Source of the DNA: Escherichia phage AV117
Strand: one strand, 5' to 3'
Sequence record: OR352947.1
Length of the DNA stretch: 64,000 nucleotides
Made by a program: the position numbers and the translations under genes. The notes under the pieces were generated by a model that worked only from the letters and a program-made list of their open reading frames with translations, made no database searches and had not been told where the DNA came from. Positions 1 through 48,428 of this stretch are shown here, piece by piece. The first letter of the stretch is position 1; every line of letters begins with the position of its first letter.

Positions 1-342
1 GTGTTGAAGTTTGCAGGCAAAGCATCTGATTTCGGTTTAGAAATAAATTTAGCGACGTTAGGATATGCCTTAAATGCTTCTTCTGCATCAGTACCACCAG
101 AAATCATAAATTTCCAGAAATCTTCAGCATATTCATAAGAGATGCGATTAATACGTGGGTCGGTCATTTTGAATGATGAAGGGGTATCAACAACTACTGT
201 CATAGACCCAATTTCATTACAACGTCCAATACGAGAATCAGTAACGAACTGTGGATTTTCTAAAATTTCACGATTGACAGCTTTAAATGCGGATTGAAAA
301 TCTTCGGCTTTAATATATTTCATTGTGTTATGTTTTCCCATG
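1..342 (-). CDS. hypothetical protein, N-terminal fragment (gene continues past window edge)
   Basis: ATG at 342..340 on minus strand, frame open to position 1 (114 codons, MGKHNTMKYIKAEDF...); only weak DxRxG/VVDTP resemblance to thymidylate-synthase-like dNMP hydroxymethylase N-termini. Confidence 0.4.
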
Positions 343-1740: not shown

Positions 1741-1800
1741 TTTTTTTTTTGCATCCCACGTTAATTGATGCGATGGTTTTTGCAGGTCTTACTTAAATTA

Positions 1801-2202
1801 TTATAGATTCGGTTTATATGATTTAAATGTTTCGAATTCGCCTTTATTCATAAGAGCTTTGAATTCGTCAGGACGCATAGCTTTGTCGTCGATAATCCAA
1901 TCATATACTGGTTTATGTGTTAGCAAATTATGGTACTTCAATCCAATGTTTGCCAAGTTCTGAATCAGACTTGGGAGAATGTCAATTGCTATACGACCAG
2001 GACCGACTGACTTCATACCGCGAGCAGTGTAAAGCGTTATGGTATGCCCTGCATCATACAGGGCATTAATGGCAGACACCATTTCGACGTCTGGTTTGAA
2101 GTTCACGTAATCACGATTGTTATTCCACTCTGTTATACAATCATCGACATCAAAACAAAGATTAAGCATGTTTTCTACACGGTGCATTAGATTCGTTCCC
2201 AT
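1801..2202 (-). CDS. HAD-superfamily phosphatase (small, KdsC-like)
   Basis: 133 aa; HAD motif I LCFDVDDCIT near N-terminus and C-terminal WIIDDK acidic motif; start overlaps 3' end of upstream kinase/NTase gene. Confidence 0.6.
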   Translation of the reverse strand: MGTNLMHRVENMLNLCFDVDDCITEWNNNRDYVNFKPDVEMVSAINALYDAGHTITLYTARGMKSVGPGRIAIDILPSLIQNLANIGLKYHNLLTHKPVYDWIIDDKAMRPDEFKALMNKGEFETFKSYKPNL

Positions 2203-3872
2203 TGATGAGTGATATCGCCACCGATTGGACGATAAGAAACACCGGTTTCTTTATCAGTTAGTACCCATTTACCAGGATTTTTTGTAATCAGAGTAGCCGT
2301 TACAGGTTCTGCTACGTCATAACTAATAGAGCCGTCCTGAAGTACACGGCCCATGTTACGTAATTGCTTAGTCAGAAGTTCCATACCTTTATAATATGCG
2401 GCTACCGCTTTAAGTGGATTATTCTTGAAATAACCACCTAATGCAATCCAGATAATTGCCGCTGCCAAATGATGATACTCGTTAAACGAACTCATCTTTC
2501 CATATTTGTAAACTAATGGATTGATGTTAATAGACACATTACAAGTTGTTTCATCGATAGTAAACTGTCCCCAGGTCGGATTAGCATTGAATTCATCATA
2601 ACCTGAAACAGCGTAAAGCACTTTAGCTTCATCATACAATTTTGGGCCGTAAATCTTGGTTTCGCCAAAATATCCACGAGGGTCGATAAACTTGACTTCG
2701 CCGTTATCAGTAATCATAGTATTACTGAAGTTCGGGTCACCATGAATAACAGAGTACTGTCCCTGAGAACGGTTATGATAACGAATAAGGTGTTCTAAAG
2801 CTTGTTTCAGCATTGGTTTCAGACGCCCAATCTTAGTGTAGTTCACATGTGTGATTTTACCAAATGAATCAATCAATGGTTGAATACTTTCACAACGATC
2901 AATGACTTTAGTATAGAATTCTTTAGTGAAATCACGACGAACAGTTTCAGGACTTACAAAATAAGTGTCTGTGCTGAATTTCAGTGCGTCTAAAATTGCA
3001 TCAACAATTTGTGGACGAGCAAGACTCGATTTGGATTTAATATATTCAAATGCTGGCTTACCTTTAATGCGTTCCATTTCAAAGTTATTTTCATTAACAG
3101 AAACTAACTGAGGAACTGAATCTGATTTCACTTTAAGATACCATGAAATCTCATCTTTCTGAAGAGCTCGACCCTGTTCGGTTAATGCGAATTTAGTTAC
3201 AGTTTCTTCACCAATTTCAACTGCATTAAAACTACGATTAAGTTCACGAACTTCATGAGCTTTTTCAAGTTTAGGCATATCACCTAAATCAATTAGATTC
3301 ATAAGCTCTGATTTATTGAATGCGCTGCCGTAAAGGAATTCTACGAAATCGCGTCCTTTGCAGTATTCATGAATTTCCTCATCAGTAGAACCCATATAGA
3401 ATTCCCAGTCTTTGAACTGATAAATTCCTACAACATTACCACCTGTTGAACCTACGTTAGTGATATTTTCACCGTCGAAATTATATCGACATTCGTCACC
3501 CTTAACATAGATTGCGTTAACATTCCAAGACCATGAACCAAAATCAGGAATAATATCACACCAGTTAACAATTACATTATGGCCGTCTAAATCTTTGTGC
3601 AATTTAGCAAGAGCATAAGCAGAACCATACGCTTCATCAACTGTACGAATAGTCACATTGAACCCTTCTTGCTCACAATAAGCTCGAACAGTTTCAGCAA
3701 ATTTTGAATGAACTACTACAATAATTTCATCTGCGCCAAGGTCAGAATAAATTGTATACAAATTGCTCAGAATAGTGTCTTGTTTATAATTAACAAGCAC
3801 CTTAGGAATATGATGCGTTATTGGATACAAACGAGTTGCCAGTCCAGCACCAAGAATAACAGCTTTTTTCAT
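2187..3872 (-). CDS. bifunctional sugar nucleotidyltransferase / sugar 1-kinase (NDP-sugar synthesis)
   Basis: 561 aa; N-terminal MKKAVILGAGLATRLYPIT is the GxGxR NTP-transferase signature (RmlA/GlmU-like); C-terminal HGDPNFSN and DPRGYFG resemble the catalytic loop of APH/choline-kinase-like kinases. Confidence 0.75.
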   Translation of the reverse strand: MKKAVILGAGLATRLYPITHHIPKVLVNYKQDTILSNLYTIYSDLGADEIIVVVHSKFAETVRAYCEQEGFNVTIRTVDEAYGSAYALAKLHKDLDGHNVIVNWCDIIPDFGSWSWNVNAIYVKGDECRYNFDGENITNVGSTGGNVVGIYQFKDWEFYMGSTDEEIHEYCKGRDFVEFLYGSAFNKSELMNLIDLGDMPKLEKAHEVRELNRSFNAVEIGEETVTKFALTEQGRALQKDEISWYLKVKSDSVPQLVSVNENNFEMERIKGKPAFEYIKSKSSLARPQIVDAILDALKFSTDTYFVSPETVRRDFTKEFYTKVIDRCESIQPLIDSFGKITHVNYTKIGRLKPMLKQALEHLIRYHNRSQGQYSVIHGDPNFSNTMITDNGEVKFIDPRGYFGETKIYGPKLYDEAKVLYAVSGYDEFNANPTWGQFTIDETTCNVSININPLVYKYGKMSSFNEYHHLAAAIIWIALGGYFKNNPLKAVAAYYKGMELLTKQLRNMGRVLQDGSISYDVAEPVTATLITKNPGKWVLTDKETGVSYRPIGGDITHQWERI

Positions 3873-3913
3873 GTTGTGGTCCTCATTGGTAAGTAGGAGT
3901 ATTGTACACTATT

Positions 3914-4057
3914 CTAGTTAAAGCATTCATACTTTGCTTGTAGTCCAATCATAATCCATCCGATTATAAGAGTCGGAACCATTACTGGAGCCGTTAAGCT
4001 CCAGTAGATAGTCATGACAAGCATCAATAGTAAAAGTCCTATTGTTATTGCTTTCAT
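3914..4057 (-). CDS. small hydrophobic membrane peptide (47 aa)
   Basis: ATG overlaps stop of upstream SIS gene (ATGA); MKAITIGLLLLMLVMTIYWSLTAPVMVPTLIIGWIMIGLQAKYECFN, two hydrophobic segments; below ORF-track size cutoff. Confidence 0.4.
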   Translation of the reverse strand: MKAITIGLLLLMLVMTIYWSLTAPVMVPTLIIGWIMIGLQAKYECFN

Positions 4058-4689
4058 TGTTCGCCTCGTAACATGGCACCTAGTGCACCGCCAGGGTGGA
4101 ACTTAAGGAAGTCATTAGAGGTAAATCCACGCTCAGACGAAAGGTTGATAGCAAACGTATCGATAAGCGCTAACAACAATGTAGTGGACATAGTCGGAGC
4201 CAGAGAATTCTCATCAACCTCTACTGCGATGCCTGTACAGAAAGAGTAATCAAAAAGGGCTTCATTTTCTTGTGGAATGTCTGGGTTACAATGCAACAGA
4301 ATCTGTTTGACGTTAGGACGAATCATTTTAAGATGCTTAGCCACGCCTATCATTTCTTCAGTTTTACCAGAACGACTAATATGAATCAACACATCATTAG
4401 GCGCAATGAATCCTGCATCACCGTGAGAATAATGCCCAGTGTTCAAGTACATACTCGGGATACCGAGTGAAGCAAATGTCTCAGAAGCTTTAGTTGCAAT
4501 ATTAGCATTCTTACCAACACCCGTAATAATTACTCGGCTTTCATAATTACTAAGTCCAGGGCGTCGAAGAGTTTCTAGAATAGCATTATAACGAGCAGGG
4601 TTTTGACTAATTACTTTGGCCATAGCGGCCAAAGAAGAAGCTTGTTTTATGATTGCGTCAATAGCGATAGTAATAGGAGTAGTTTTCAT
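4054..4689 (-). CDS. SIS-domain D-arabinose-5-phosphate isomerase (KdsD/KpsF-type, no CBS domains)
   Basis: 211 aa; ITGVGKNANIATK and LIHISRSGKTEE SIS motifs; C-terminal APTMSTT...RGFTSNDF...HPGGALG matches KdsD SIS domain. Confidence 0.8.
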   Translation of the reverse strand: MKTTPITIAIDAIIKQASSLAAMAKVISQNPARYNAILETLRRPGLSNYESRVIITGVGKNANIATKASETFASLGIPSMYLNTGHYSHGDAGFIAPNDVLIHISRSGKTEEMIGVAKHLKMIRPNVKQILLHCNPDIPQENEALFDYSFCTGIAVEVDENSLAPTMSTTLLLALIDTFAINLSSERGFTSNDFLKFHPGGALGAMLRGEQ

Positions 4690-4729
4690 ATTTCTCTCAT
4701 TTAATTAGTTTACCGTCCATGACATTATA

Positions 4730-7441
4730 TCAAAAATCGAACATATCGAACAGAGATGCTTTCTTCTCGTAATCGAGTTTCGCTGCTGATGTGAATCCTT
4801 CAAGTGGTTTAATAAATGTCTTCTCAAGGAGAACAGTGTAGTCCATCCAATGAAGTACGTCGTCTTTAATTAAATCTGTGATTTCAGTACCAGAAGGCCA
4901 TGCGATACATTTATCACCGAATGGGTTTCCTTCACGTAAAGGCAGAACATATACTTTTTCACCTTCTACAACTTGCGGTGCATCGATATTACCTTTGATA
5001 GCCCGGTTATACGTCAGAATTCCACGAATATGGAATGGACATTTAGGACCAGGGAATCCACCTACATCATATTTAGCAATGTTATTCGCAGAAGATACCG
5101 ACGCGATGCTAATATAATTCAATTGACGGAATTCTTTTTCAAACTCTTTAAAATATTCTTGTAATGATTCTTCACCTTCTTGAAGCATACGACGAATACA
5201 TTCTTTAAGAGCTTTCTGTACTGCTTTAGGAGTCGAAGATTTCTGAGTCTCTAGACCCATGATTTTGAGTTTAGGCTCAGCGTAACGAGTACCTTCCATA
5301 TCCCACACGTTTAATGCATAACGTTTCTTACCAGTCCAGAATCCGCCAATACCTTTAGAACCAAGCGGAGGCCCAGCGATAGCTTCTCGGTCCATGAACA
5401 TTAAGTGTTGTTTATTGTTCATGTATTCACACATTTCACGGAAACCTCTATCAATAGCTGGTTCCATACGTTCACGTGCAAACTTATCTAAGAAGTCTAC
5501 CCAATGGTTGGTATCACGGAATTTAGATTCACCAACCTTATCGATAATTTTATCAGCAGATACGTAAATAGAGTCTGTATCACCGTAAAGAACGAAAGCT
5601 TCACCTTCTGTGCCACAAACTTCATTCAGATATTCATTAACTTTACGTTCAATCCACTGTAAAGCCATTTGACCAAATGTTGTGATTGCAGTAGCATTAC
5701 GCAAATCATAATAACGGAACCAAACGTTTCCAAGTGCACCATAAAGTGAGTTGATAAGCAATTTACGGTTAATTTGGGCAGTCATACCTGCAACTTCAGT
5801 ACGTTGAGCTCTAAACAACATTTCATTAAGAGATTTAGCAGACAACTTTTTAATCTTTTCTTTAATCTCATCACTGAAGTCGAAACGATAATCAACATCT
5901 AATGGTTCGTCAACAGAAAGATTAGGATTATGCAATGCCTCTTTAATTATTTCACCATTACGTTGAGCTGCAAGCATGTAACCTTTATGTTCTTTACGTT
6001 GATTAAAGACCTTAGTGATTTCGGTTGGAACTACACCGTCACGGTCTTTATAATACATCATGCCGTTAGGAGAACAACTGTACACATCAGAAGGACGCTC
6101 AGCGATTGCGTTAATATAATCATGCAGTGGAGCTACTTTAAACGTTCCTGCTATTGTTTCTGGGCTAATATTCACTTGGCGAATAATACTTGGATACAGA
6201 GATGTAAGGTCGAAACTCATTACATATTTGTATCGATTTGGAATAGGTTCCTTAACAAAAGCGCCAGGATAAGGTTGAACCGGGTGAGAACGACCTTGTG
6301 GAATCACCTTGTTCTGCTCTTTAAGGCTATTAAAAATAATAGCATCCCATGTTTTAATTGGACTAAACACAGATTGAATCTGTATCTTAGCATAATAACC
6401 CATGTCCAAGCTCAAGTTAATGAACTGACGTTTACCATCAATTTGCAATACACGATACACGTCGATAATGTTATAAGAAATATATCGTTGGTGATTGCTT
6501 TCACGAAGCTTAGAAATAGGGCCGTCATATTTCAGTTTACCAACGTTCAATTCAAATTCTGAAATGTAATCCAGAGAATATGATGGTTGATTGGTAAAAG
6601 AGAATTTTTTGTAAAGGTCAATGTAATCAAGAACAGAGATACCGAACAATGTAATGATTTCACGAGAACCATACATGTTTTCGATAACTTTAACACGAGT
6701 TTTACGATGTGGTGACAACCGTTTTGCTGTGGATTCGCCAAAAATATTCTTGATTCGGTTATACACATATGGAATATCAAATGACTCAACGTTCCATCCA
6801 GTCAAAATGACAGGAGTTTTCTGTTGCCAGAAGTTGAGATATTCCATCAACAATTCTTTTTCGTTATCGAACGGCATATAAATGATTTTATCGATAATTT
6901 CGGATGGAACTTCATCACCACCTTGTTCTTGAAGCTTAGCCGCAATTTCGATAGACCATTCTTCTACATTACCATATGGAGAATTCAATAGATCAAATAC
7001 GTAGAACCTGTCGTCAATTGAGTCATAATGGGTGATAGCATCAATCGGATGTTTTGCTTGTGACGGCTCAGGGAACCCGTCCGGAGATGTTACTTCGATG
7101 TCGAAGTTAGCCACACGAATTTTTGTATGGTCGTATTTGATTTCATAGTTATAAGTGTCAGACAAATACGCTAATTTGAAATCGTCCATGCCAAGTGCTT
7201 CAAGTCCGATATCTTCCATGCGTTTAATCCATTGGGAGGCATCACGCATATTGGCGAACAACTTACGAGTACACGGCTTACCGTAGATATCGAAATATTT
7301 CGTAGCCTGACTTTCTGGACAATGAGCAAACAGTGATGGTTTATATTCTACTTCACGAGTACGTTCACGGCCATTAGAATCGATGTAACGTTCAAAAATT
7401 GAATCACCAATCTGTTCAACCGTTAAGTAAAATTCTTTCAT
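4730..7441 (-). CDS. 43: DNA polymerase gp43 (family B with 3'-5' exonuclease)
   Basis: 903 aa; exo motifs FDIEV and YNIIDV, pol motifs DLTSLYPSII, KLLINSLYGALG, YGDTDS; sequence reads as RB69-type gp43. Confidence 0.97.
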   Translation of the reverse strand: MKEFYLTVEQIGDSIFERYIDSNGRERTREVEYKPSLFAHCPESQATKYFDIYGKPCTRKLFANMRDASQWIKRMEDIGLEALGMDDFKLAYLSDTYNYEIKYDHTKIRVANFDIEVTSPDGFPEPSQAKHPIDAITHYDSIDDRFYVFDLLNSPYGNVEEWSIEIAAKLQEQGGDEVPSEIIDKIIYMPFDNEKELLMEYLNFWQQKTPVILTGWNVESFDIPYVYNRIKNIFGESTAKRLSPHRKTRVKVIENMYGSREIITLFGISVLDYIDLYKKFSFTNQPSYSLDYISEFELNVGKLKYDGPISKLRESNHQRYISYNIIDVYRVLQIDGKRQFINLSLDMGYYAKIQIQSVFSPIKTWDAIIFNSLKEQNKVIPQGRSHPVQPYPGAFVKEPIPNRYKYVMSFDLTSLYPSIIRQVNISPETIAGTFKVAPLHDYINAIAERPSDVYSCSPNGMMYYKDRDGVVPTEITKVFNQRKEHKGYMLAAQRNGEIIKEALHNPNLSVDEPLDVDYRFDFSDEIKEKIKKLSAKSLNEMLFRAQRTEVAGMTAQINRKLLINSLYGALGNVWFRYYDLRNATAITTFGQMALQWIERKVNEYLNEVCGTEGEAFVLYGDTDSIYVSADKIIDKVGESKFRDTNHWVDFLDKFARERMEPAIDRGFREMCEYMNNKQHLMFMDREAIAGPPLGSKGIGGFWTGKKRYALNVWDMEGTRYAEPKLKIMGLETQKSSTPKAVQKALKECIRRMLQEGEESLQEYFKEFEKEFRQLNYISIASVSSANNIAKYDVGGFPGPKCPFHIRGILTYNRAIKGNIDAPQVVEGEKVYVLPLREGNPFGDKCIAWPSGTEITDLIKDDVLHWMDYTVLLEKTFIKPLEGFTSAAKLDYEKKASLFDMFDF

Positions 7442-10654: not shown

Positions 10655-10855
10655 TTATTCGTAGAAGTCGGTAACTGTCCATGCGGAATTGCGATTAGAC
10701 ATTATTTTATTATACTCATCTTTAAAAGCAGATTTGAGCATTTGTTCAGTAACAATATGTTCTTCGCCTGAAAACGTATTGGTCAAAACATATTTTTTAA
10801 TTTCAGGGACAACTAGAAGATGTTGTCCGGTTGAATACTCCATGTTGTTCTCCAT
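10655..10855 (-). CDS. hypothetical protein (45.2 position)
   Basis: 66 aa ORF tightly packed between gene 46 and rpbA. Confidence 0.5.
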   Translation of the reverse strand: MENNMEYSTGQHLLVVPEIKKYVLTNTFSGEEHIVTEQMLKSAFKDEYNKIMSNRNSAWTVTDFYE

Positions 10856-10897
10856 TTAATTTGATGTGGTCATTATAACCACATCGTGTTAAAGCGT

Positions 10898-12586
10898 TTA
10901 TGAAACAGTCATTACCGTAAATCGTCCAACTTTGCTCATCTGAAGATGTTGTCCGTACCGTTGAGGGTCATGGTCTCGATGGGAGATAATGAACACATTA
11001 GTATTTTGTAAACTTCCAAGGATGGTATCTATAGCCTTAACAGCCTCAGAATCGACAGCACCATCAAAAACCTCATCAAGAATCAGAGTGTTGATTTTAA
11101 CACCAGAGACCTTTTCAGCAATATCTCGCCATGTAAACAACAATGCGATATCGATACGTGCCTTTTCACCTTGACTAAATGAAGCATAACTAAAATCTTC
11201 ACGACCACGTGATTTTATAGATTCATTGAATTCTTCGTCAATAGAAAACACGTAATCAGCTTCCATGATTTTAAGATAATGGTTAATCTGCTTGTTGAAC
11301 AGAGGCACATATTTTTTAATGATAGCACCTTTAATACCAGAATCTTTTAACATATCTGTGATAATACCACGATGGTATTTTTCAAGAACGATATCTGATT
11401 TTGTTTTAATGATTTTATCAAGTTCTTTTTGAAGCAAAGCTATCTCATCGGCATGGTCGATAAATTCAGCTGAGGCTTGTTCTATTGCAGCTTTAACTTT
11501 CTTAGCTTTATCAATAGTGGCAATCATTGCTTGTTTCTTAGTACGAATATCAGATGCAAGGTCCTGTTTAGTCTTAACATTAGCTCTATATTCGTCAACT
11601 AGGACACTCAGATTATCTCTGTGACATGTAAGTTGCTCGAATGAGTGATTACATTCGTGAAGCTTATCGGTAATCTTAGAGACAATAGGGTCACCCTGGT
11701 GCAACTGTGATGCGCAAGTAGGACATGTACCACCATCATGATACATCTTAATAACTTTATTATATGAGTCAATTTTAGATTTAATCAAGAATGCTTCTTG
11801 TCCTATCTTGTTGAATGCCTCAGTAGGGTCTTCATCAAGAACGATATTAAGTAGTCGCTCATTAGCTTCTTCGATTTCTGCTTTTAATGAACGAGCTTCT
11901 TTGGCTAGGTCGTCATACATATTCTGTAGACGCGCTACATTATCACCAGATAATTTCTTTTGACGTTCGATATTCTCGTTATAAATCTTAATTTGTTGGA
12001 TAATACCATCTTTCTTGGCATCGAGAACTTGTCCCTGGGAATTAAGTTCTCGAACTTGAGACTTATTGATTTTATCCATTTCAGCGAGTGTGCCGACTTC
12101 TAAAAGGTCTTCGACAAGTTTTCTGCGAGCAGGGGTGCTAAGAGCCATGAAAGGGGTATACCCTGCCGTCCCAAGCACAACGATTTGTTTAAAAGACGCG
12201 TATGACATTCCGATGCTACGTTCAAATTCTTCTTGGAAGTCACGACTGCTGGCAGATTCATCAAGACGAACACCGTCAACGGAGATTTCGAAAATATTGG
12301 GTTTTTGGCCACGTTTAATGAAGTATTTTTTACCATCGAATTCCATCCAAAGCTCAACTAAGAGCTCTTTCTTGTTCGTGCTATTAATGATTTGCCCTTT
12401 CTTAACATCACGAAATGGTTTACCGAAAAGTCCGAAAGTAATGGCTTCTAACATCGTAGATTTACCACCACCATTTTTACCAGTGATTAATGTCTTTTGG
12501 ACTTTATCTAATTGGATGTCAATAGGATTCCCACCTACCGACATGATGTTTTGATAACGAACACGATTTAATTTAAATGATTTCAT
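10898..12586 (-). CDS. 46: recombination endonuclease subunit gp46 (Rad50/SbcC-like ATPase)
   Basis: 562 aa; Walker A GKNGGGKST, central coiled coil, C-terminal LILDEVFD; T4 gp46 is 560 aa. Confidence 0.93.
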   Translation of the reverse strand: MKSFKLNRVRYQNIMSVGGNPIDIQLDKVQKTLITGKNGGGKSTMLEAITFGLFGKPFRDVKKGQIINSTNKKELLVELWMEFDGKKYFIKRGQKPNIFEISVDGVRLDESASSRDFQEEFERSIGMSYASFKQIVVLGTAGYTPFMALSTPARRKLVEDLLEVGTLAEMDKINKSQVRELNSQGQVLDAKKDGIIQQIKIYNENIERQKKLSGDNVARLQNMYDDLAKEARSLKAEIEEANERLLNIVLDEDPTEAFNKIGQEAFLIKSKIDSYNKVIKMYHDGGTCPTCASQLHQGDPIVSKITDKLHECNHSFEQLTCHRDNLSVLVDEYRANVKTKQDLASDIRTKKQAMIATIDKAKKVKAAIEQASAEFIDHADEIALLQKELDKIIKTKSDIVLEKYHRGIITDMLKDSGIKGAIIKKYVPLFNKQINHYLKIMEADYVFSIDEEFNESIKSRGREDFSYASFSQGEKARIDIALLFTWRDIAEKVSGVKINTLILDEVFDGAVDSEAVKAIDTILGSLQNTNVFIISHRDHDPQRYGQHLQMSKVGRFTVMTVS

Positions 12587-12837
12587 ATGTATTCTCTTCG
12601 AATGAAGTCCTCTACATATTTTAACATGTCATCTCTATCAGCAAAATATTCATCTAGTTCTGCATACATAACAACACCTGGTGCGTACTCACAGGTAACG
12701 TACATTGTTCCAAAGAAACGAGGAGTTGATTCCTCGTAATTCTCAGTCCATTCAACGATACCAATATAACCATCACCAATACTAAACTCATGACGATGGA
12801 TTTCATAATCTGTCTTAGTCATTATATGCATCCTCAA
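12583..12837 (-). CDS. hypothetical protein (46.1 position)
   Basis: 84 aa ORF, start overlaps upstream gene, stop overlaps gene 46 start. Confidence 0.5.
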   Translation of the reverse strand: MRMHIMTKTDYEIHRHEFSIGDGYIGIVEWTENYEESTPRFFGTMYVTCEYAPGVVMYAELDEYFADRDDMLKYVEDFIRREYI

Positions 12838-13066
12838 TACACGCTTCAGCCATTTTAAGAATAGAGCCAGGAGTATCGTTGTCCATTATATTAAAGCTAA
12901 ATTCAATAGCCCAGTCGGTGCAGACATGAACTGCTTTAACTTCATTGCCTTCAACGCGTAATGGCTCAATCCAATACTTGATAGTGTTCTCGAATCCATC
13001 GTCATCTTTAACGTCCATTTCAACTTCAAGGTTGAGTCCAGCATTGTTAAATTCATCTAAAGTCAT
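12815..13066 (-). CDS. hypothetical protein (46.2 position)
   Basis: 83 aa ORF between 47 and 46, overlapping junctions. Confidence 0.5.
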   Translation of the reverse strand: MTLDEFNNAGLNLEVEMDVKDDDGFENTIKYWIEPLRVEGNEVKAVHVCTDWAIEFSFNIMDNDTPGSILKMAEACIEDAYND

Positions 13067-14082
13067 TGTGTTGCCTCAATATAAAGTTCGTTGGAATATT
13101 TGACCAGCGCTTCTCTGTCTTCGTCTGAGATATCTGGAATCGCGTCAATATATTCTTTAATGATATCTTGAAGTGATTTAATCTCGATTTCCTGGTCGTC
13201 ATCAGATTCAACACTGTTATCAACTTTAGAAACCATACGAAGAGAGTGAACTACTTTTTCAAGTTCAGATTCAAACTTAGTCAACTCTGAATCAATTTCT
13301 GATACTATAACACGTACGGCTAGATTAGTATAATCAGAATAATTGATTTTGCCTTTAAACGGATAAGTGATTCGTCGATGCCATGTTGTTTCATTAGGAA
13401 TAAATTCCATACGTTCAACATCGGTGTCAAATACCCAGAATCCTCGAGGGTCGTTTTCATCACCTGCAGTAAGGGTCCATGGTGTCCCAATATATTTGAC
13501 GTTAGCAGCTTCAGAGATTGTGTGGAAGTGGCCGGACCAGACTTGTTTATAGGTCTTTAAGAAATCAGGTTCAAGCCCATGAGACTTCATTCCTTTATAG
13601 AAATAAAAGCCATTCAGTTCCCAGTGCCCAACACAAAAAGAAGCAGATGAAGTTTTGATATGTTCAAGAATTTCACCAGTATTTTCTTCGCACATCCAAG
13701 GAATTAAATCAATCAAACATCCGTCAAAATCTACTGTAGTAGGCTTATCATATACTTTAACATTAGGATATTTAGCTAAAAGCTCAGTAGAAGCGTTTGG
13801 AGTTAAAGTATTTTTAAAGTGCATATCATGGTTTCCTACAACAGTATGTAGGGTAATACCAGCATCATCAAGCATTTGAACTATTTCACGTGCGAACTCC
13901 ATAGTTTTATGCGTGATTGCTTTTCGCACATCAAAAATATCACCGTATTGAATCCATGTAGTAATTCCATTTTTCTTGGAATATTCTATCGCCTGCTTAA
14001 TTCCATCCAACTGAATGGATTGAACCCACTCATCATCGGCTTTAACACCTAAATGCCAATCACCTAAATTTAAAATTTTCAT
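13063..14082 (-). CDS. 47: recombination endonuclease subunit gp47 (Mre11/SbcD-like nuclease)
   Basis: 339 aa; phosphoesterase motifs LGDWHLG, GDIFD, VVGNHD, GHFH; same length as T4 gp47. Confidence 0.93.
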   Translation of the reverse strand: MKILNLGDWHLGVKADDEWVQSIQLDGIKQAIEYSKKNGITTWIQYGDIFDVRKAITHKTMEFAREIVQMLDDAGITLHTVVGNHDMHFKNTLTPNASTELLAKYPNVKVYDKPTTVDFDGCLIDLIPWMCEENTGEILEHIKTSSASFCVGHWELNGFYFYKGMKSHGLEPDFLKTYKQVWSGHFHTISEAANVKYIGTPWTLTAGDENDPRGFWVFDTDVERMEFIPNETTWHRRITYPFKGKINYSDYTNLAVRVIVSEIDSELTKFESELEKVVHSLRMVSKVDNSVESDDDQEIEIKSLQDIIKEYIDAIPDISDEDREALVKYSNELYIEATQ

Positions 14083-14128
14083 ATTATTTCCTCATTAGTT
14101 AATTCATTCTATCATCCGTTTATAAAGC

Positions 14129-14153
14129 AAAAAAAGGAACTCCGAAGAGTTCC
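14129..14153 (-). terminator. rho-independent terminator
   Basis: minus-strand GGAACUC-UUCG-GAGUUCC hairpin followed by U7. Confidence 0.6.
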
Positions 14154-14329
14154 TATCCACATAGTACACCGTACAGAGGCTCATTTGAACTTTTAAATCG
14201 AATGGGCTTGTATGTAATAGTTCCTTCTGCTTTAGCTTTATCATGAGACTCTTTAAAACGTCTCATCATTTCTACTTTAGAGGAACGAATTTTATTATAA
14301 TCTATTTCAGAAGTCGGGATGTTCGTCAT
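14153..14329 (-). CDS. hypothetical small protein (58 aa)
   Basis: ATG at 14329, MTNIPTSEIDYNKIRSSKVEMMRRFKESHDKAKAEG...; ends at terminator hairpin; below ORF-track cutoff. Confidence 0.35.
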   Translation of the reverse strand: MTNIPTSEIDYNKIRSSKVEMMRRFKESHDKAKAEGTITYKPIRFKSSNEPLYGVLCG

Positions 14330-14368
14330 GCATAAGCACCTCTCAGAAAATGCCTAAATCAATTTCTC

Positions 14369-14575
14369 TCATCGTTTCCACCATTTCTTAACTTGAAATG
14401 AATCAACCCACACGAGTTGTTTTGGGTCTGCCTTTACAATAGGCGGACAAATTTCTGTAATAGAACCGTCGTGATATTCCTTTTCAGAGATTTTAACACA
14501 AAGAGGACCTCCCAATTTAAGGGTGAATCCTGCGTTCAGATTAAGACGTTTAAACTTTGTTTGAACTAGCGCCAT
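14369..14575 (-). CDS. hypothetical protein
   Basis: ORF in 47-55 interval; start set at internal ATG. Confidence 0.4.
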   Translation of the reverse strand: MALVQTKFKRLNLNAGFTLKLGGPLCVKISEKEYHDGSITEICPPIVKADPKQLVWVDSFQVKKWWKR

Positions 14576-14873
14576 TAATGATGTCCTCAATAGCCTGACG
14601 AGTAGTAACCCACTGGATTTTAATTAACTTGTCATTATATGGTTGTCGTAGAATATCCCGAGATTTCTTAATAGCATATTCGTAAGCTTCGAAGTTGTTT
14701 TGAATTGCTGCTTCTTGAGCATGAGCATAAAGACGGTTTAGTTCAAAACGATTCTTTTTAAGAATCTTTTCGGATTTTTTACGTGCTTCAGCTTCATTTT
14801 TCTTTTGGATTTCTTGTAGCATTTTAGCTACTGCATCTTCTGCTTCTTTATTTTCAATAATCTCGGTAGTCAT
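14550..14873 (-). CDS. hypothetical protein
   Basis: 107 aa lysine/glutamate-rich helical ORF in 47-55 interval. Confidence 0.5.
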   Translation of the reverse strand: MTTEIIENKEAEDAVAKMLQEIQKKNEAEARKKSEKILKKNRFELNRLYAHAQEAAIQNNFEAYEYAIKKSRDILRQPYNDKLIKIQWVTTRQAIEDIINGASSNKV

Positions 14874-14874
14874 A

Positions 14875-15084
14875 TTATCTCATTAAATTAAAATAAAAAC
14901 GTCCATCCTCTTCAATACAGAACTCATACTCGACCGGAGTCCCATTTATCGAAAATGACACGTCATGTGGGTTCAAAGGGTCGATGTCAAAATTAATTTT
15001 AAATTCACGACCCAACAGTTTTATCAAATAAGGGATTGCTTCGTCAAAAGGTTCTTCTAAGTAGTTAGAGATGTCAATTGTCAT
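14875..15084 (-). CDS. hypothetical protein
   Basis: ORF immediately downstream of gene 55; start set at internal ATG 15084 to limit overlap with gene 55. Confidence 0.45.
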
Positions 15085-15631
15085 CCTCATATAAAAAATC
15101 CAAACTAGGCGAATCGCTAACAACTTCCTTCTTTTCAGCCCCAGGAGCTTTATAAGCGGATTCTTCATAATGCGTCATTTTATCGTAGATGTCTTGAATA
15201 AACGTTTCATCTACCAACGCTACCATATCATCGTCATGACTGTCGTAGACGTTATGAACGAAGTAACTATATTTCTTTGCAACTTCCTTACGTTCTTTTT
15301 TGATACGTTGGACAAAAGCATTAAAACAAGCTCGAGTTATGTATGCATGTGGGTTATTGTACTTAGTTTCGTCGAAATTATGAAGTCCCTTAATAGAGGC
15401 TTCAATCCCATCTGCAATCATCTCCTGCTTCCAAGACTGGGTATATCCTGAAAAGTTGAAACGTTTGGACAGGCCTTCGGCGATAAGCATAATTGCTAAA
15501 CCGATGGTATCATTCTGACGAATAATTTTGTTTGGGTCTTTATTATTTAAGAGCTCCTTTTTCCACTCGATTATAGCGGCGAGAAGCTCTTTATTATTCA
15601 CATAGTTATTTTTAGGTTTTTGTTCAGTCAT
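15074..15631 (-). CDS. 55: late-transcription sigma factor gp55
   Basis: 185 aa; [20 protein letters not shown]...[45 protein letters not shown] matches T4 gp55 nearly throughout. Confidence 0.95.
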
Positions 15632-18737: not shown

Positions 18738-18977
18738 TTAAGCCTTTTTATCAAGAACAGAATTCAGTTTATTAGTAATTTTGTCCAAACGTTCATTGAA
18801 TTCGCTGGAGGATAAACCCTTTTCCGGAGAAATTAAACTAATCACGAAAAATACACCAGTAAAAGGAATAAGAAAAATAGCTCCAACTGCCATAAACAAA
18901 AAGAACGTTACAGTTGTAAGAAAATCAGCTAAACCTTTACGAAATTTATACATATTTACCCTTAATTGATTAACCAA
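18738..18977 (-). CDS. hypothetical membrane protein
   Basis: 79 aa with hydrophobic segment FLFMAVGAIFLIPFTGVFFVISLI. Confidence 0.5.
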   Translation of the reverse strand: MVNQLRVNMYKFRKGLADFLTTVTFFLFMAVGAIFLIPFTGVFFVISLISPEKGLSSSEFNERLDKITNKLNSVLDKKA

Positions 18978-19067
18978 ACATTGATAAACACTAAACTATA
19001 TTGCGAATAAAATTCTGGACCAAAACGAAAAATCATATCATTTATAGTATCCATAGTGTAATTCAAT

Positions 19068-19538
19068 TTAATCATGTTTCCACACCCCATCGGTATTTGA
19101 CCAAAGTCGCTGATTATCTGATCCTCGCCACAGTTTTTTGGTCGGAAGATTTTTCTCATACTTCCCATCAATAATAACATCAACATATTTAAGCATTTCT
19201 AGTTGTTTAATATCTTCAAACTTGTACCCTGTCCACAACCAAATGCTTTTATTGGGATAAAGATTTTTTACTGTTTGAGCAATGCAATGAACAACATCTC
19301 TGTTATCAGGATAAAGAGGGTCTCCTCCAGTTATAGTTAATCCTTCTATATAATCATTATTCAAACATTCAATTAATTGCTCTAGTGTTTCACCAGTGAA
19401 TGGAATACCATTTCTAGCGTTCCATGTTGATTTATTATAACACCCTTCACATTTATGCAAACAACCTGTAACGAAAAGAACGACCCTGCATCCAGGGCCA
19501 TTCACAAAATCACAGGGATAAAATCTATCATAATTCAT
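19068..19538 (-). CDS. nrdG: anaerobic ribonucleotide reductase activating protein NrdG (radical SAM)
   Basis: 156 aa; CLHKCEGC radical-SAM cysteine triad; same length as T4 NrdG. Confidence 0.92.
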   Translation of the reverse strand: MNYDRFYPCDFVNGPGCRVVLFVTGCLHKCEGCYNKSTWNARNGIPFTGETLEQLIECLNNDYIEGLTITGGDPLYPDNRDVVHCIAQTVKNLYPNKSIWLWTGYKFEDIKQLEMLKYVDVIIDGKYEKNLPTKKLWRGSDNQRLWSNTDGVWKHD

Positions 19539-21352
19539 TGGTGTTTAACCCTATGCATGATTTCTTTATTTTTGCCGAGATTAAATCCACGTTCATTCGG
19601 ATTTCCAAGATAACCGCATGTTCTTCTTATTGTGTTCATCTTTTTAGGATCAGTTTCTCCACAAATAGAACAAACAAATCCGTTTTCGGTAGGAGTCATT
19701 TCATGGGTACTTCCACACGTAAAACATTTATCTACTGGCATATTAACACCAAAATAATCTAAATGTTGCGCAGCATAATCCCAGACAGCCTCAAGACCTT
19801 TTAGGTTATTTTTCATATCAGGAAGTTCAACATAAGAAATGTGTCCACCGGTCGCAATGAAATGATATGGGGCTTCGCGAGAAATCTTTTCAAACGGAGT
19901 AATATTTTCTTCTACTGAAACGTGGAAACTATTAGTGTACCAGCCTTTATCAGTAACATCTTTTACACTTCCATATTTTTCGATATCAAGTTTACAGAAG
20001 CGATAGCACAGGTTTTCAGCAGGTGTAGAATACAAGCTAAAAGCAAAACCGGTTCTTTCGGTCCACTGCTTAAGACGAGCATTCATTTTAGTTAAAATTT
20101 CCTTTCCAATATCACGACCGACAAGAATATTCAATTCGTGAATACCAATGTATCCTAAGGACACTGAACTTCTACCGTTTTTAAATAACTCAATTATATC
20201 GTCCTCAGGTTTAAGACGAACCCCGAATGCACCTTCTTGGTAAAGAATAGGAGCAACAGTAGCTTTAACTCCTTTTAAGGAACTAATTCTACACATCAAA
20301 GCTTCAAAACACAGATCCATTCGTTCATTAAATAGCTCAACAAATTTCTGTTCATTGAATTGTGTTCCAATATAAGAATCTAACGCAATACGAGGAAGAT
20401 TCAGTGTTACAACACCAAGATTATTACGTCCATCAAGAATTTCATTACCGGTCGAATCTTTCCATACGCTCAAGAAACTACGGCAACCCATTGGAGAAAC
20501 AGGAACAGATGAACCGGTGATAGCTTTATTATTCTTAACTGAAATAATATCAGGATACATTCTTTTGCTTGCGCATTCTAAAGCAAGCTGCTTAATATCA
20601 TAGTTCGGGTCGTCTTTATAAAGATTGACACCCTCTTCAACGAACATAACAAGTTTAGGGAAAATAGGAGTTATTCCATCACGACCAAGACCTTTGATAC
20701 GATTTTTCAGAATTGCTTTCTGAATCATTCGTTCAGTCCAGTCAGTTCCCGTGCCAAATGTAATTGTTACAAAAGGCGTTTGTCCGTTTGAACTAAAGAG
20801 AGTATTTACTTCGTATTCATACGCTTGGAATGCATCGTATACGTCTTTTTCTGTTTTAGATTGGGCATAATTCAACGCATCAGCGATTTGCCATTTTTCT
20901 GCATCCTCAATATGTTTTGCATAGGTGCGTTTAACATAAGGAGAAAGTACTTTATCTACATTAGCAAAAGTCGTTCCGCCGTACTGATGTGAAGCAACTT
21001 GTGCAGTAATTTGTGCCATAATTGCAGTAGCAACGCCGATTGATTTAGGAGTTTCAATTTGAGCATTGCCTAATTTAAATCCATTCTCAAGCATCCCCTT
21101 TAAATCGACTAAACAGCAATTAGTAAATGGAAGAGCAGGAGAATAATCAATATCATGGAAATGGATAATTCCGCTTTCATGTGCTTTCATAATAAAAGAC
21201 GGGACCATATTTTTGGCAATGTGCTTAGACACAATACCAGCCATAAGGTCCCGTTGAGTTGGAAAAACACGAGAATCTTTATTAGCATTCTCGTTCAAAA
21301 GATCTTTATTAGTTTTATGAATTAATCCTTCAATTTCTTTTTCAATTTTCAT
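19535..21352 (-). CDS. nrdD: anaerobic ribonucleoside-triphosphate reductase NrdD
   Basis: 605 aa; C-terminal glycyl-radical motif RTCGYLG and Zn ribbon CFTCGS...CSICG; uninterrupted (no intron). Confidence 0.95.
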   Translation of the reverse strand: MKIEKEIEGLIHKTNKDLLNENANKDSRVFPTQRDLMAGIVSKHIAKNMVPSFIMKAHESGIIHFHDIDYSPALPFTNCCLVDLKGMLENGFKLGNAQIETPKSIGVATAIMAQITAQVASHQYGGTTFANVDKVLSPYVKRTYAKHIEDAEKWQIADALNYAQSKTEKDVYDAFQAYEYEVNTLFSSNGQTPFVTITFGTGTDWTERMIQKAILKNRIKGLGRDGITPIFPKLVMFVEEGVNLYKDDPNYDIKQLALECASKRMYPDIISVKNNKAITGSSVPVSPMGCRSFLSVWKDSTGNEILDGRNNLGVVTLNLPRIALDSYIGTQFNEQKFVELFNERMDLCFEALMCRISSLKGVKATVAPILYQEGAFGVRLKPEDDIIELFKNGRSSVSLGYIGIHELNILVGRDIGKEILTKMNARLKQWTERTGFAFSLYSTPAENLCYRFCKLDIEKYGSVKDVTDKGWYTNSFHVSVEENITPFEKISREAPYHFIATGGHISYVELPDMKNNLKGLEAVWDYAAQHLDYFGVNMPVDKCFTCGSTHEMTPTENGFVCSICGETDPKKMNTIRRTCGYLGNPNERGFNLGKNKEIMHRVKHQ

Positions 21353-21822
21353 TTTAAACTCTTTCTAAGCTGCTTTTTGAATGAAGCTATTAATTGTGTT
21401 TTGGTATCAGATTCATTATATTCAAATCCTCTTTGAAGCATCTCAGCCATCATTTCCTCTTTACCTAGTCTTGAGAACTCTTTAGTTTTGTCTGGAACAA
21501 AATTAGGATGGATATTATTATCAGAATAATCTTGTTTCAAATAAGCAAGAAGAGCTTCAAGCCATTCGAGGTAGTCGACATCACGTCCTTTAAGACCGGA
21601 ACGGTTGAACTTATGCTTCATTTGACCTTCTGCTGCGTTGCACAGATTACAGAGTAACCCACGAACTCTACCGGCTTGTGGCCCGTTTAATTCGTGGTCG
21701 TGGTCAAGGTGGTTACCTTGAACATCAGGGTCTAATTCACGGTGGCAAATAGGACACTTACCGTTCTGTGCATCATAAAATTTTTGTTTTTCTTCTTTAT
21801 ATTTTGCGCCTGATAATAACAT
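21349..21822 (-). CDS. 49: endonuclease VII (Holliday junction resolvase) gp49
   Basis: 157 aa; CPICHREL...HLDHDHELNG...CNLCNAAEG; near-identical to T4 gp49 over the C-terminal half. Confidence 0.95.
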   Translation of the reverse strand: MLLSGAKYKEEKQKFYDAQNGKCPICHRELDPDVQGNHLDHDHELNGPQAGRVRGLLCNLCNAAEGQMKHKFNRSGLKGRDVDYLEWLEALLAYLKQDYSDNNIHPNFVPDKTKEFSRLGKEEMMAEMLQRGFEYNESDTKTQLIASFKKQLRKSLK

Positions 21823-33723: not shown

Positions 33724-33947
33724 TTAGGTTCACCTTCTTTAACGAAATCCGGGTAAGGGTAAAATCCTGAGTAAAACCCTTCACCTTTATGATTGCTACA
33801 ACCTTTGTTCGAACAGTAACACCAATAATCAAAATCACAAGCCATTTCGTCATTGCATAAAGCAAAAACTACAGGCCATTCGCATTTTTCGCATTTAGCA
33901 CCTGTAAGAATTTTTGTTTGACTCATAGCCATGTCACCTTTAAGCAA
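33720..33947 (-). CDS. hypothetical Cys-rich protein
   Basis: 75 aa with CEKCEW...C...C..C..C pattern. Confidence 0.45.
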   Translation of the reverse strand: MLKGDMAMSQTKILTGAKCEKCEWPVVFALCNDEMACDFDYWCYCSNKGCSNHKGEGFYSGFYPYPDFVKEGEPK

Positions 33948-34150
33948 TATTCTTCTATATGTTGTTTACGGCCTTTCTTATCAATAAAGGTATATTCAAC
34001 GAATGTTCCGATGTAGTCTTTATCTACATCATGTGGACTATTAATTGGACATTTGGTACGACAAATGCGTTCCCATTGACGAATAATTACTGCCTTATTC
34101 TTTGGGTCATATGGATGTGGATAATGTATATTCATAATAATGGTTCCCAA
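33923..34150 (-). CDS. hypothetical protein
   Basis: 75 aa ORF. Confidence 0.45.
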   Translation of the reverse strand: MGTIIMNIHYPHPYDPKNKAVIIRQWERICRTKCPINSPHDVDKDYIGTFVEYTFIDKKGRKQHIEEYCLKVTWL

Positions 34151-48384: not shown

Positions 48385-48428
48385 TGATGGTCCTTAGAAA
48401 GTAGGTTTATTGTTTACTATATTTATAC

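What the first reader, a model, noticed from the sequence alone, without database searches (positions are those of the whole stretch)
14083..15073. No alpha-glucosyltransferase between genes 47 and 55
In T4 the alpha-gt gene (about 400 codons) lies between 47 and 55. Here that interval holds only four short ORFs of 58 to 107 codons. This fits a phage that does not glucosylate its DNA and is independent support for the arabinose module.
Basis: partly seen in the sequence, partly recalled or inferred. Interest (0 to 1): 0.6.

Follow-up and report, generated by a model that had tools for sequence, protein, structure and literature searches.

The report
RB69-type phage lacks alpha-glucosyltransferase cassette
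The window comes from an RB69/JS09-like (Mosigvirus) T4-type phage in which the gap between genes 47 and 55 holds only the four small conserved genes a-gt.2 to a-gt.5 and no alpha-glucosyltransferase, a published trait of this arabinose-modifying group, so the finding is correct but ordinary.

Summary
Window 14083-15073 is exactly the interval between gene 47 and gene 55. It holds four short minus-strand genes, the orthologs of T4 a-gt.2, a-gt.3, a-gt.4 and a-gt.5. T4 has an extra 2.2 kb here (47.1, a-gt, mobB). In the window that stretch is replaced by a 70-bp spacer carrying one terminator hairpin and one MotA-type middle promoter.

The window is 97-99% identical to Mosigvirus phages (JS09, ST0, PNJ-6, DCP548). 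No a-gt, b-gt or T2 ba-gt homolog is found by tblastn in the window or in the complete JS09 genome. Published work already states that RB69 lacks both glucosyltransferases and carries arabinose on its cytosines.

An a-gt-less 47-55 interval also occurs in VR7, which has no arabinose module, so it is not specific evidence for arabinosylation. RB69-type phages do encode GT-B-like arabinosyltransferases, outside this window.

Two additions. T4 and Klebsiella phage Mineola carry the hairpin/promoter unit on both sides of a-gt, and lab strain T4(147) lost a-gt and mobB by a deletion joined inside those hairpins. The first ~445 bp of gene 47 here is a Tequatrovirus-like recombination patch that ends at the cassette boundary.

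Novelty: already known. Interest: low.

The parts
13063..14082 (-). Gene 47 (SbcD-like recombination endonuclease subunit), 339 aa
   Evidence: 86% identical to T4 gp47; phrog_100, E 5e-141.
13637..14071 (.). Tequatrovirus-like recombination patch inside the 5' part of gene 47. Its right breakpoint (14071-14086) lies at the gene 47 start codon, the edge of the a-gt cassette site.
   Evidence: At sites where phiD1 and HX01 differ, the window equals phiD1 at 124 of about 129 sites here. It equals HX01 at about 208 of 213 sites to the left and 35 of 35 to the right.
14083..14152 (-). 70-bp spacer that stands where T4 has 47.1 + a-gt + mobB. Read on the minus strand it holds a terminator-like hairpin AGGAACTC-TTCG-GAGTTCCT (14154-14135) with a T-run, a Mot box TGCTTTA (14129-14123), an 11-nt spacer, a -10 element TAGAAT (14111-14106), a Shine-Dalgarno GAGG (14092-14089) and the ATG at 14082.
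   Evidence: Terminator scan. Sequence. The Mot-box plus -10 pattern occurs 14 times in the window against 2.4 expected. The T4/window alignment breaks at 14084 and resumes at 14119.
14153..14329 (-). a-gt.2 ortholog, 58 aa, function unknown
   Evidence: 91% identical to T4 a-gt.2; Pfam DUF5486, E 4e-38; phrog_2140.
14369..14575 (-). a-gt.3 ortholog, 68 aa from the ATG (the raw ORF runs to a TTG at 14590), function unknown
   Evidence: 69% identical to T4 a-gt.3; phrog_1648; no Pfam family; start as annotated in ST0.
14550..14873 (-). a-gt.4 ortholog, 107 aa, function unknown
   Evidence: 58% identical to T4 a-gt.4; Pfam DUF2654, E 1e-27; phrog_951.
14875..15084 (-). a-gt.5 ortholog, 69 aa from the ATG at 15084, overlapping the end of gene 55 by 11 nt (the raw ORF extends to 15168), function unknown
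   Evidence: 45-47% identical to T4 a-gt.5; Pfam DUF5491; start as annotated in ST0 and JS09.
15074..15631 (-). Gene 55, late sigma factor, 185 aa
   Evidence: 91% identical to T4 gp55; phrog_234.
3..341 (-). N-terminal 113 codons of the RB69 ORF048c-type thymidylate-synthase homolog (published as a 5-hydroxy-dCMP synthase), cut by the window edge
   Evidence: 95.6% identical to JS09_0136. The JS09 protein hits Pfam Thymidylat_synt and is only 25% identical to T4 gp42. Function from PMC13326640.
580..4689 (-). Sugar-nucleotide part of the arabinose module: U32-like protein (580-1740), HAD-like phosphatase (1801-2202), NTP-transferase plus kinase fusion (2187-3872) and SIS arabinose-5-phosphate isomerase (4054-4689). 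It lies just upstream of gene 43 (4730-7441).
   Evidence: Pfam Peptidase_U32, NTP_transferase and SIS. PHROGs including arabinose 5-phosphate isomerase, E 4e-116. JS09 annotation. Roles as proposed in PMC13326640 Table 1.

Best explanation
The window is part of a Mosigvirus genome, an RB69/JS09-like T4-type coliphage. In this lineage the 47-55 interval carries only the conserved genes a-gt.5, a-gt.4, a-gt.3 and a-gt.2, which are named for their position in T4 and have no known link to glucosylation.

The T4 block 47.1 + a-gt + mobB is absent cleanly. a-gt.2 is followed by one terminator hairpin and one MotA-type middle promoter that reads into gene 47. The phage has no alpha-, beta- or beta-alpha-glucosyltransferase. 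Per the literature, it modifies cytosine through a thymidylate-synthase homolog that makes 5-hydroxy-dCMP, followed by arabinosylation from a phage-made sugar nucleotide. An enzyme that glucosylates hmC would therefore have no substrate.

The a-gt gene behaves as a cassette bounded by repeated hairpin/promoter units (PmSL/PeSL-type). Recombination between those units can remove or insert it and leave exactly the single-unit junction seen here.

Shown here: gene content, orthology, the junction anatomy, the absence of detectable homologs, and the repeat-flanked cassette in T4 and Mineola. Taken from the literature: the DNA chemistry. Inferred: that the Mosigvirus state arose by recombination at these units, and whether it was a loss or a never-gained state.
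For: Taxon: 97.5-98.7% nucleotide identity to PNJ-6, DCP548, ST0 and JS09, all Mosigvirus.

Orthology of the four ORFs and their flanks to T4.

Junction: the T4 alignment stops at 14084 and resumes at 14119, which skips T4 L001 3450-5703.

No glucosyltransferase: tblastn with T4 a-gt, b-gt, mobB and 47.1 and with T2 ba-gt gives nothing better than E 0.28 in the window or in the whole JS09 genome. No Pfam glycosyltransferase family matched in the scanned window ORFs of 120 aa or more: all of those lying between 580 and 53216 except genes 43, 46, 47, 62, 44 and 45; ORFs in the baseplate block (gene 2 onward, beyond 53316) were also not scanned.

Lineage-wide: 141 records carry the uninterrupted junction.

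Literature: RB69 has no a-gt or b-gt homolog and its DNA carries arabinose (PMC6024577). RB69 and DLP3 lack both glucosyltransferases, and the base is arabosylated 5-hydroxycytosine made through gp48 (PMC13326640).

Cassette model:
- T4 has hairpin + Mot box + -10 both after a-gt.2 and after a-gt, and Mineola likewise.
- T4(147), a viable HMC-only lab strain (PMC4471564), has a 2081-bp deletion of a-gt + mobB. Its junction AGGAGC-TTCG-GCCCTTT is a hybrid of the two hairpins.
- PeSL/PmSL elements are published mediators of modular shuffling in T4-type phages (PMC2839356, PMC4122927).
Against: Only 64 kb of a roughly 170-kb genome is visible. The T4 b-gt neighbourhood (uvsX to 42) lies just beyond the left edge, so absence of other glucosyltransferases in this particular phage is inferred from JS09 and RB69.

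Pfam negatives are weak: the known RB69-type arabinosyltransferases also give no Pfam hit. One lineage-specific 318-aa ORF of unknown function (42772-43728) could not be modelled (pLDDT 36).

The direction of change is unresolved. a-gt sits at the same site in Tequatrovirus and Jiaodavirus, with divergence like that of its flanks (66% against 67-77%). That favours an old cassette and loss in Mosigvirus. But four genera lack it, so gain or transfer is also possible.

Promoter and terminator calls are consensus matches only.
Confidence: 0.9

Rival explanations
1. The phage still glucosylates its DNA using a glucosyltransferase encoded elsewhere: outside the window, or a divergent GT-B protein inside it that sequence methods miss.
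For: About 60% of the genome is not in the window. Thomas et al. list natural phages without a-gt but with b-gt and ba-gt. RB69-type GT-B enzymes escape Pfam, so hidden glycosyltransferases are possible in principle. ORF 42772-43728 remains unclassified.
Against: The complete JS09 genome (97.6% identical over the first 25 kb) has no a-gt, b-gt or ba-gt homolog. The left edge of the window shows the RB69-type ThyA homolog and arabinose module where T4 has 42, imm and imm.1. RB69 DNA hydrolysates contain arabinose, not glucose (PMC6024577). Published structure-based screening of RB69 found only gp3 and gp46:47 as glycosyltransferases, and both were assigned to arabinose.
Confidence: 0.04
2. The missing a-gt is a recent deletion or a laboratory or assembly artefact of this one isolate, like the deletion in T4(147), and not a lineage trait.
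For: T4(147) shows that such a deletion arises and is viable.
Against: 141 independent phage records share the uninterrupted junction. The 30 best matches, from many countries and hosts, align in one piece. The spacer is identical in type to that of HX01, a different Mosigvirus species. No remnant of a-gt, 47.1 or mobB is detectable.
Confidence: 0.02
3. Mosigviruses never had a-gt. The cassette was inserted at the a-gt.2|47 hairpin/promoter site in the Tequatrovirus lineage and, separately or by transfer, in Jiaodavirus. The window would then show the ancestral empty site and not a deletion scar.
For: Four of the six genera examined lack a-gt at this site (and the window). The site attracts mobile DNA: mobB in T4, a homing endonuclease in LC53, and HNH endonuclease genes next to gene 47 in several Tequatroviruses.
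Against: T4 and Mineola a-gt differ about as much as their flanking core genes do (66% against 67-77%). Both have a-gt at the identical position flanked by the same kind of unit. This fits long vertical residence. Tequatrovirus is the closest of the sampled genera to the window (gp46, gp47 and gp55 at 83-91% against 65-77%), so an outgroup sharing a-gt with T4 favours loss.
Confidence: 0.4

Closest known systems
Escherichia phages RB69, JS09, ST0, HX01 (genus Mosigvirus)
   Same: Identical gene order 46, 46.1, 46.2, 47, a-gt.2, a-gt.3, a-gt.4, a-gt.5, 55 with no a-gt. Same arabinose module upstream of gene 43. 95-99% nucleotide identity.
   Different: Only allelic differences. The window, JS09, ST0 and DCP548 carry a Tequatrovirus-like patch in the 5' part of gene 47 that HX01 and most other Mosigviruses lack.
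Phage T4 47-55 interval (47.1, a-gt, mobB, a-gt.2 to a-gt.5)
   Same: Same flanking genes and the same four small genes in the same order and orientation. Same type of hairpin + Mot-box unit after a-gt.2.
   Different: T4 has an extra 2.2 kb (47.1, the 400-aa alpha-glucosyltransferase, the HNH endonuclease mobB) and a second copy of the hairpin/promoter unit. The interval is 3152 bp against 991 bp here.
Laboratory strain T4(147), KJ477685 (HMC-only DNA)
   Same: a-gt.2 is followed directly by a single hairpin + Mot-box promoter. a-gt and mobB are absent.
   Different: It is a recent deletion in a T4 background and keeps 47.1. The hybrid hairpin shows the crossover point. It still makes hmC, whereas RB69-type phages make a different base (PMC4471564, PMC13326640).
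PeSL/PmSL promoter-stem-loop cassettes of T4-type phages (Arbiol 2010; Comeau 2014)
   Same: A stem-loop joined to a promoter, sitting at the boundary of an insertion/deletion between related genomes and repeated on both sides of the variable module.
   Different: Here the promoter is of the middle (Mot-box) type, which the 2014 paper describes for the nt-1 pair. This particular unit at the a-gt site is not mentioned in the passages I read, and its activity was not tested.

Membership tests
T4-type DNA alpha-glucosyltransferase (Pfam AGT, PF11440) | An ORF of about 400 aa between a-gt.2 and gene 47 | tested here: not met
   Only a 70-bp spacer lies between a-gt.2 (ends 14153) and gene 47 (starts 14082).
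T4-type DNA alpha-glucosyltransferase (Pfam AGT, PF11440) | Sequence similarity to T4 a-gt anywhere in the window or in the closest complete genome | tested here: not met
   Best tblastn E is 0.53 in the window and 1.4 in JS09. No AGT hit among the scanned window ORFs, while T4 a-gt itself scores 862 bits.
T4 beta-glucosyltransferase (PF09198) and T2/T6 beta-alpha-glucosyltransferase | Sequence similarity in the window or in the JS09 genome | tested here: not met
   Best tblastn E-values are 1.6 and 4.3 for b-gt and 8.0 and 0.85 for ba-gt. The T4 b-gt locus itself lies outside the window.
Mosigvirus / RB69-type arabinose-modifying phage | High nucleotide identity and synteny with RB69/JS09-type genomes | tested here: met
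   97.5-98.7% identity over 3.5 kb and 25 kb stretches, and the same gene order.
Mosigvirus / RB69-type arabinose-modifying phage | Arabinose-nucleotide module (API/SIS, NTP-transferase plus kinase, phosphatase, U32-like) and the ThyA homolog between uvsX and gene 43 | tested here: met
   Pfam and PHROG hits at 580-4689. The first 113 codons of the ORF048c homolog are at 3-341.
Mosigvirus / RB69-type arabinose-modifying phage | Arabinosyltransferases (homologs of RB69 gp46:47 and gp3) | not testable with these tools
   Both loci fall outside the 64-kb window. They are present in JS09 (JS09_0137, JS09_0177).
Mosigvirus / RB69-type arabinose-modifying phage | Arabinosylated cytosine derivative in virion DNA | not testable with these tools
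   Known for RB69 only, from the literature (PMC6024577, PMC13326640).
PeSL/PmSL regulatory cassette | A stem-loop immediately followed by a promoter consensus | tested here: met
   Hairpin 14154-14135 with T-run, Mot box 14129-14123, -10 element 14111-14106. The pattern is enriched 14 against 2.4 expected.
PeSL/PmSL regulatory cassette | Located at an indel boundary and repeated on both sides of the variable module in related genomes | tested here: met
   T4 and Mineola have the unit on both sides of a-gt. The T4(147) deletion joins the two hairpins.
PeSL/PmSL regulatory cassette | Actual termination and MotA-dependent transcription | not testable with these tools
   Consensus matches only.
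T4 a-gt.2 / a-gt.3 / a-gt.4 / a-gt.5 small-protein families | Sequence similarity, order and orientation as in T4 | tested here: met
   BLASTP identities of 91/69/58/47%. DUF5486, DUF2654 and DUF5491. PHROGs 2140, 1648, 951 and 1169.

The most novel reading that the evidence does not exclude
The a-gt.2|47 junction may be a recombination hot spot where DNA-modification cassettes are swapped between T4-type genera. It is bounded by hairpin/middle-promoter repeats and visited by homing endonucleases.

The JS09 subclade, including this window, has taken up a 435-bp stretch of gene 47 from a glucosylating Tequatrovirus. That stretch stops exactly at the start codon, the last base of shared homology before the a-gt cassette.

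This would mean that arabinose-type and glucose-type phages do exchange DNA in nature, despite the proposed genetic isolation of RB69. It would also mean that a-gt is left out because the homology ends there, or because the gene is useless or harmful in a phage that makes 5-hydroxycytosine instead of hmC.
Probability: 0.3. Interest if true: 0.35.

Novelty: already known. Interest (0 to 1): 0.1.

Why it matters
It matters little beyond correct annotation. The finding confirms that this window belongs to the RB69/JS09 group, whose lack of T4 glucosyltransferases and arabinose-based cytosine modification are already published. Such phages are expected to behave differently from T4 toward restriction systems, type IV nucleases and CRISPR.

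Two practical cautions follow. First, the 'a-gt.N' gene names are positional, and these genes persist without a-gt. Second, absence of a-gt alone should not be used to predict the type of DNA modification. The uvsX-43 region and the divergent GT-B genes must be examined, and Pfam does not recognise those genes.

The cassette anatomy and the Tequatrovirus patch give small, testable examples of how modification genes are gained, lost or excluded during recombination between T4-type genera.

Tried and rejected
1. Pfam as a screen for hidden glycosyltransferases. No GT family was found in the scanned window ORFs of 120 aa or more. The control showed that the known RB69-type arabinosyltransferases (JS09_0137, JS09_0177) also get no Pfam hit. 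I treat this negative as weak.

2. Single-sequence AlphaFold2 of the only lineage-specific unknown ORF above 250 aa (42772-43728). Mean pLDDT was 36, which is unusable, so no fold search was run. Its PDB sequence search gave nothing and its PHROG families have unknown function. I ran no further search on this side issue.

3. Function of a-gt.2 to a-gt.5. There are no PDB relatives, only DUF or unknown-function PHROG families, and no paper in the library mentions these names. The phrog_17354 label 'head maturation protease' for a 35-residue stretch of a-gt.2 is not credible for a 58-aa protein, so I ignored it.

4. Parsimony for gain against loss. Six genera gave a mixed pattern and the question stays unresolved.

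5. Decayed remnant of a-gt, mobB or 47.1 in the spacer. Rejected: the spacer is 70 bp and tblastn finds nothing.

6. Uniqueness of the gene 47 patch. Rejected: other stretches at or above 92% identity to T4 exist in the window, notably nrdG/nrdD.
Full report
**What is at the coordinates.** All genes in this part of the window are on the minus strand. Gene 46 is 10898-12586, 46.1 is 12583-12837, 46.2 is 12815-13066, gene 47 is 13063-14082 and gene 55 is 15074-15631. The finding's interval, 14083-15073 (991 bp), is therefore exactly the space between the start of gene 47 and the stop of gene 55.

It holds four ORFs: 14153-14329 (58 aa), 14369-14590 (73 aa, or 68 aa from the ATG at 14575), 14550-14873 (107 aa) and 14875-15168 (97 aa as a raw ORF, or 69 aa from the ATG at 15084, which overlaps the stop of gene 55 by 11 nt). 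BLASTP against the T4 proteins of the same region pairs them one to one with a-gt.2 (91%), a-gt.3 (69%), a-gt.4 (58%) and a-gt.5 (47%). The flanks match gp46 (83%), gp47 (86%) and gp55 (91%). Pfam assigns DUF5486, DUF2654 and DUF5491 to a-gt.2, a-gt.4 and a-gt.5, and all four fall into PHROG families of unknown function.

**What T4 has there.** The T4 record shows, between 47 and 55: 47.1 (46 aa), a-gt (400 aa), mobB (an HNH homing endonuclease), a-gt.2, a-gt.3, a-gt.4 and a-gt.5. That is 3152 bp against 991 bp here. A nucleotide alignment of the window with T4 stops at window 14084 and resumes at 14119, which skips T4 locus positions 3450-5703. The window therefore lacks exactly 47.1 + a-gt + mobB and keeps everything else.

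**Which phage this is.** The region is 98.7-97.6% identical to phages PNJ-6, DCP548, ST0 and JS09 (genus Mosigvirus, the RB69 group) and aligns with them in one piece. The first and last 25 kb of the window behave the same way. On the JS09 annotation the window runs from the RB69ORF048c homolog, through the arabinose-related genes, gene 43, 46/47, 55, nrdD, tk and e, to baseplate genes 5 to 8.

The left end of the window carries these features:
- The first 113 codons of the ORF048c-type thymidylate-synthase homolog (3-341; 95.6% identical to JS09).
- A U32-like protein (580-1740).
- A HAD-like phosphatase (1801-2202).
- An NTP-transferase/kinase fusion (2187-3872).
- A SIS arabinose-5-phosphate isomerase (4054-4689).

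**Is any glucosyltransferase present?** tblastn with T4 a-gt, T4 b-gt, T4 mobB, T4 47.1 and T2 ba-gt found nothing better than E = 0.28, either in the window or in the complete 169,148-bp JS09 genome that I assembled from four fetched pieces. T4 gp42 matches JS09 only weakly (25% identity to ORF048c).

A Pfam scan covered the window ORFs of 120 aa or more that lie between 580 and 53216, except genes 43, 46, 47, 62, 44 and 45; ORFs in the baseplate block (gene 2 onward, beyond 53316) were also not scanned. It found no glycosyltransferase family. This negative must be read with care. As a control I scanned the two JS09 proteins that the literature regards as arabinosyltransferases (JS09_0137 and JS09_0177), and they also give no Pfam hit, while T4 a-gt and b-gt score strongly. 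One lineage-specific 318-aa ORF of unknown function (42772-43728) could not be classified. Its PDB sequence search was empty, its PHROGs are uninformative, and a single-sequence AlphaFold model was unusable at pLDDT 36.

**What the literature already says.**
- Thomas et al. 2018 (PMC6024577) report that BlastP from T4 a-gt, T4 b-gt and T2 ba-gt finds no homolog in RB69. They found that RB69 DNA contains arabinose instead of glucose. They proposed ORF003c as a GT-B-like arabinosyltransferase with homologs in JS09, and ORF052/053c and ORF055c as sugar-nucleotide genes.
- Lee et al. [quoted passage not shown] They show that the base is mono- or di-arabinosylated 5-hydroxycytosine, and that gp48 makes 5-hydroxy-dCMP. 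They assign gp46:47 and gp3 as arabinosyltransferases and extend the cluster to Mosigviruses, Dhakaviruses and other groups.

The finding is therefore a rediscovery of a published trait.

**How specific is the absence of a-gt?** tblastn of T4 a-gt against the phage collection finds 657 records. These are mainly Tequatroviruses (90% identity or more) and Klebsiella phages of the Jiaodavirus type (about 66%).

| Phage (genus) | 47-55 interval | uvsX-43 region |
|---|---|---|
| Mineola (Jiaodavirus) | a-gt between a-gt.2 and 47 | not examined |
| WG01 (Dhakavirus) | a-gt.5 to a-gt.2 plus 47.1, no a-gt | not examined here; Lee et al. list Dhakaviruses among groups with the cluster |
| VR7 (Gaprivervirus) | a-gt.5 to a-gt.2, no a-gt | no gene 42, no b-gt, no arabinose module |
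| LC53 (Winklervirus) | small ORFs plus a homing endonuclease, no a-gt | full arabinose-type module |

Thomas et al. also list phages with b-gt and ba-gt homologs but no a-gt. An empty a-gt site is therefore compatible with arabinosylation, with unmodified cytosine, or with glucosylation by other enzymes. It is consistent with the arabinose module but is not independent evidence for it.

**Anatomy of the junction and a mechanism.** Read on the minus strand, the 70-bp spacer after a-gt.2 contains these elements in order:
- the hairpin AGGAACTC-TTCG-GAGTTCCT (14154-14135) followed by a T-run;
- a Mot box TGCTTTA (14129-14123);
- 11 nt of spacing;
- a -10 element TAGAAT (14111-14106);
- a Shine-Dalgarno GAGG;
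- the gene 47 ATG.

The Mot-box plus -10 pattern occurs 14 times in the window against 2.4 expected. T4 carries the same kind of unit twice, once after a-gt.2 (reading into mobB) and once after a-gt (reading into 47.1 and 47). Mineola likewise has one on each side of a-gt.

The sequenced laboratory strain T4(147), which has HMC-only DNA because of changes in its glucosyltransferase genes (PMC4471564), has a 2081-bp deletion of a-gt and mobB. Its junction, AGGAGC-TTCG-GCCCTTT, is a hybrid of the two hairpins. This is a direct precedent: recombination between the flanking units removes the cassette and leaves a single unit, which is the architecture seen in the window. Such promoter-stem-loop units (PeSL, and PmSL for the Mot-box form) are already described as mediators of modular shuffling in T4-type phages (PMC2839356, PMC4122927).

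Whether Mosigviruses lost a-gt or never had it is not settled. T4 and Mineola a-gt are 66% identical, similar to their flanking core genes (67-77%). The window is closer to T4 (83-91%) than to Mineola (65-77%). This favours an old cassette and a loss, but four genera lack it.

**Seen in passing.** A 100-bp identity profile showed that 13600-14100, the 5' part of gene 47, is 93-99% identical to Tequatroviruses (T4, phiD1). The Mosigvirus HX01 is only 67-86% identical there, whereas elsewhere in the region HX01 is mostly 97-100% identical and T4 about 50-90%.

At sites that distinguish phiD1 from HX01, the window follows HX01 up to 13633. It follows phiD1 at 124 of about 129 sites between 13637 and 14071, and HX01 again from 14086 onward (35 of 35). 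The right breakpoint is the gene 47 start codon, the last shared base before Tequatroviruses diverge into 47.1 and a-gt.

Only about 15 records share this gp47 allele. It is therefore a recent import from a Tequatrovirus into the JS09 subclade that stops at the cassette edge. It is not unique: other stretches at or above 92% identity to T4 exist, notably nrdG/nrdD at 18800-21400, against a window median of 76%.

**Verdict.** The feature is a known property of RB69-type phages. Interest is low. The only modest additions are the repeat-flanked cassette anatomy with the T4(147) precedent and the intergeneric recombination patch that abuts the site.

Noticed in passing
window 13637-14071: The first ~445 bp of gene 47 is a Tequatrovirus-like patch (93-99% identical to phiD1 and T4) in an otherwise Mosigvirus-type region. 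Its breakpoints lie at about 13635 and at the gene 47 start codon (14071-14086). Only about 15 phage records share this gp47 allele. It indicates natural recombination between a glucose-type and an arabinose-type phage that ends at the a-gt cassette edge.
   Followed up: yes
window 18800-21400, 33900-34200, 36800-37000, 37900-38500, 48400-48700: Further stretches at or above 92% identity to T4, against a window median of 76%. The largest covers nrdG/nrdD, where T4 carries mobC and the I-TevII intron. They may be more intergeneric exchange or homing-associated gene conversion.
   Followed up: partly
L012 (T4 strain 147, KJ477685) 1567-1606; T4 L001 3596-3630 and 5703-5735: The lab strain T4(147) lacks a-gt and mobB through a 2081-bp deletion. 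Its junction is a hybrid of the two terminator hairpins that flank the cassette in wild-type T4.
   Followed up: yes
window 42772-43728 (-): A 318-aa ORF (RB69ORF134c homolog; Pfam DUF7277 + DUF7275; phrog_2141) with no T4-named counterpart and no known function. The single-sequence structure model was unusable.
   Followed up: partly
window 51148-51603, 36301-36714 and 34132-34629 (-): Pfam hits to the anti-CBASS protein Acb1 (the 57B position), to an Acb2/Tad1 hairpin-domain protein, and to a macro-domain protein (tk.4). These are counter-defence genes shared with T4.
   Followed up: no
window 10800-11100: At the 3' end of gene 46 and just downstream, the window matches JS09 (97-98%) but is only 62-84% identical to HX01 and ST0. 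This is another mosaic boundary among Mosigviruses.
   Followed up: no
L003 45978-46877 and L007 17653-18753 (JS09): The two published RB69-type arabinosyltransferase homologs give no Pfam hit at E <= 0.01. Pfam-based screens will therefore miss this class of DNA glycosyltransferase.
   Followed up: yes
L013 (phage VR7) 8133-9345: Gaprivervirus VR7 has neither gene 42, nor b-gt, nor an arabinose module between uvsX and gene 43, and it also lacks a-gt. It is an example of an a-gt-less T4-type phage without cytosine hypermodification genes at these loci.
   Followed up: partly
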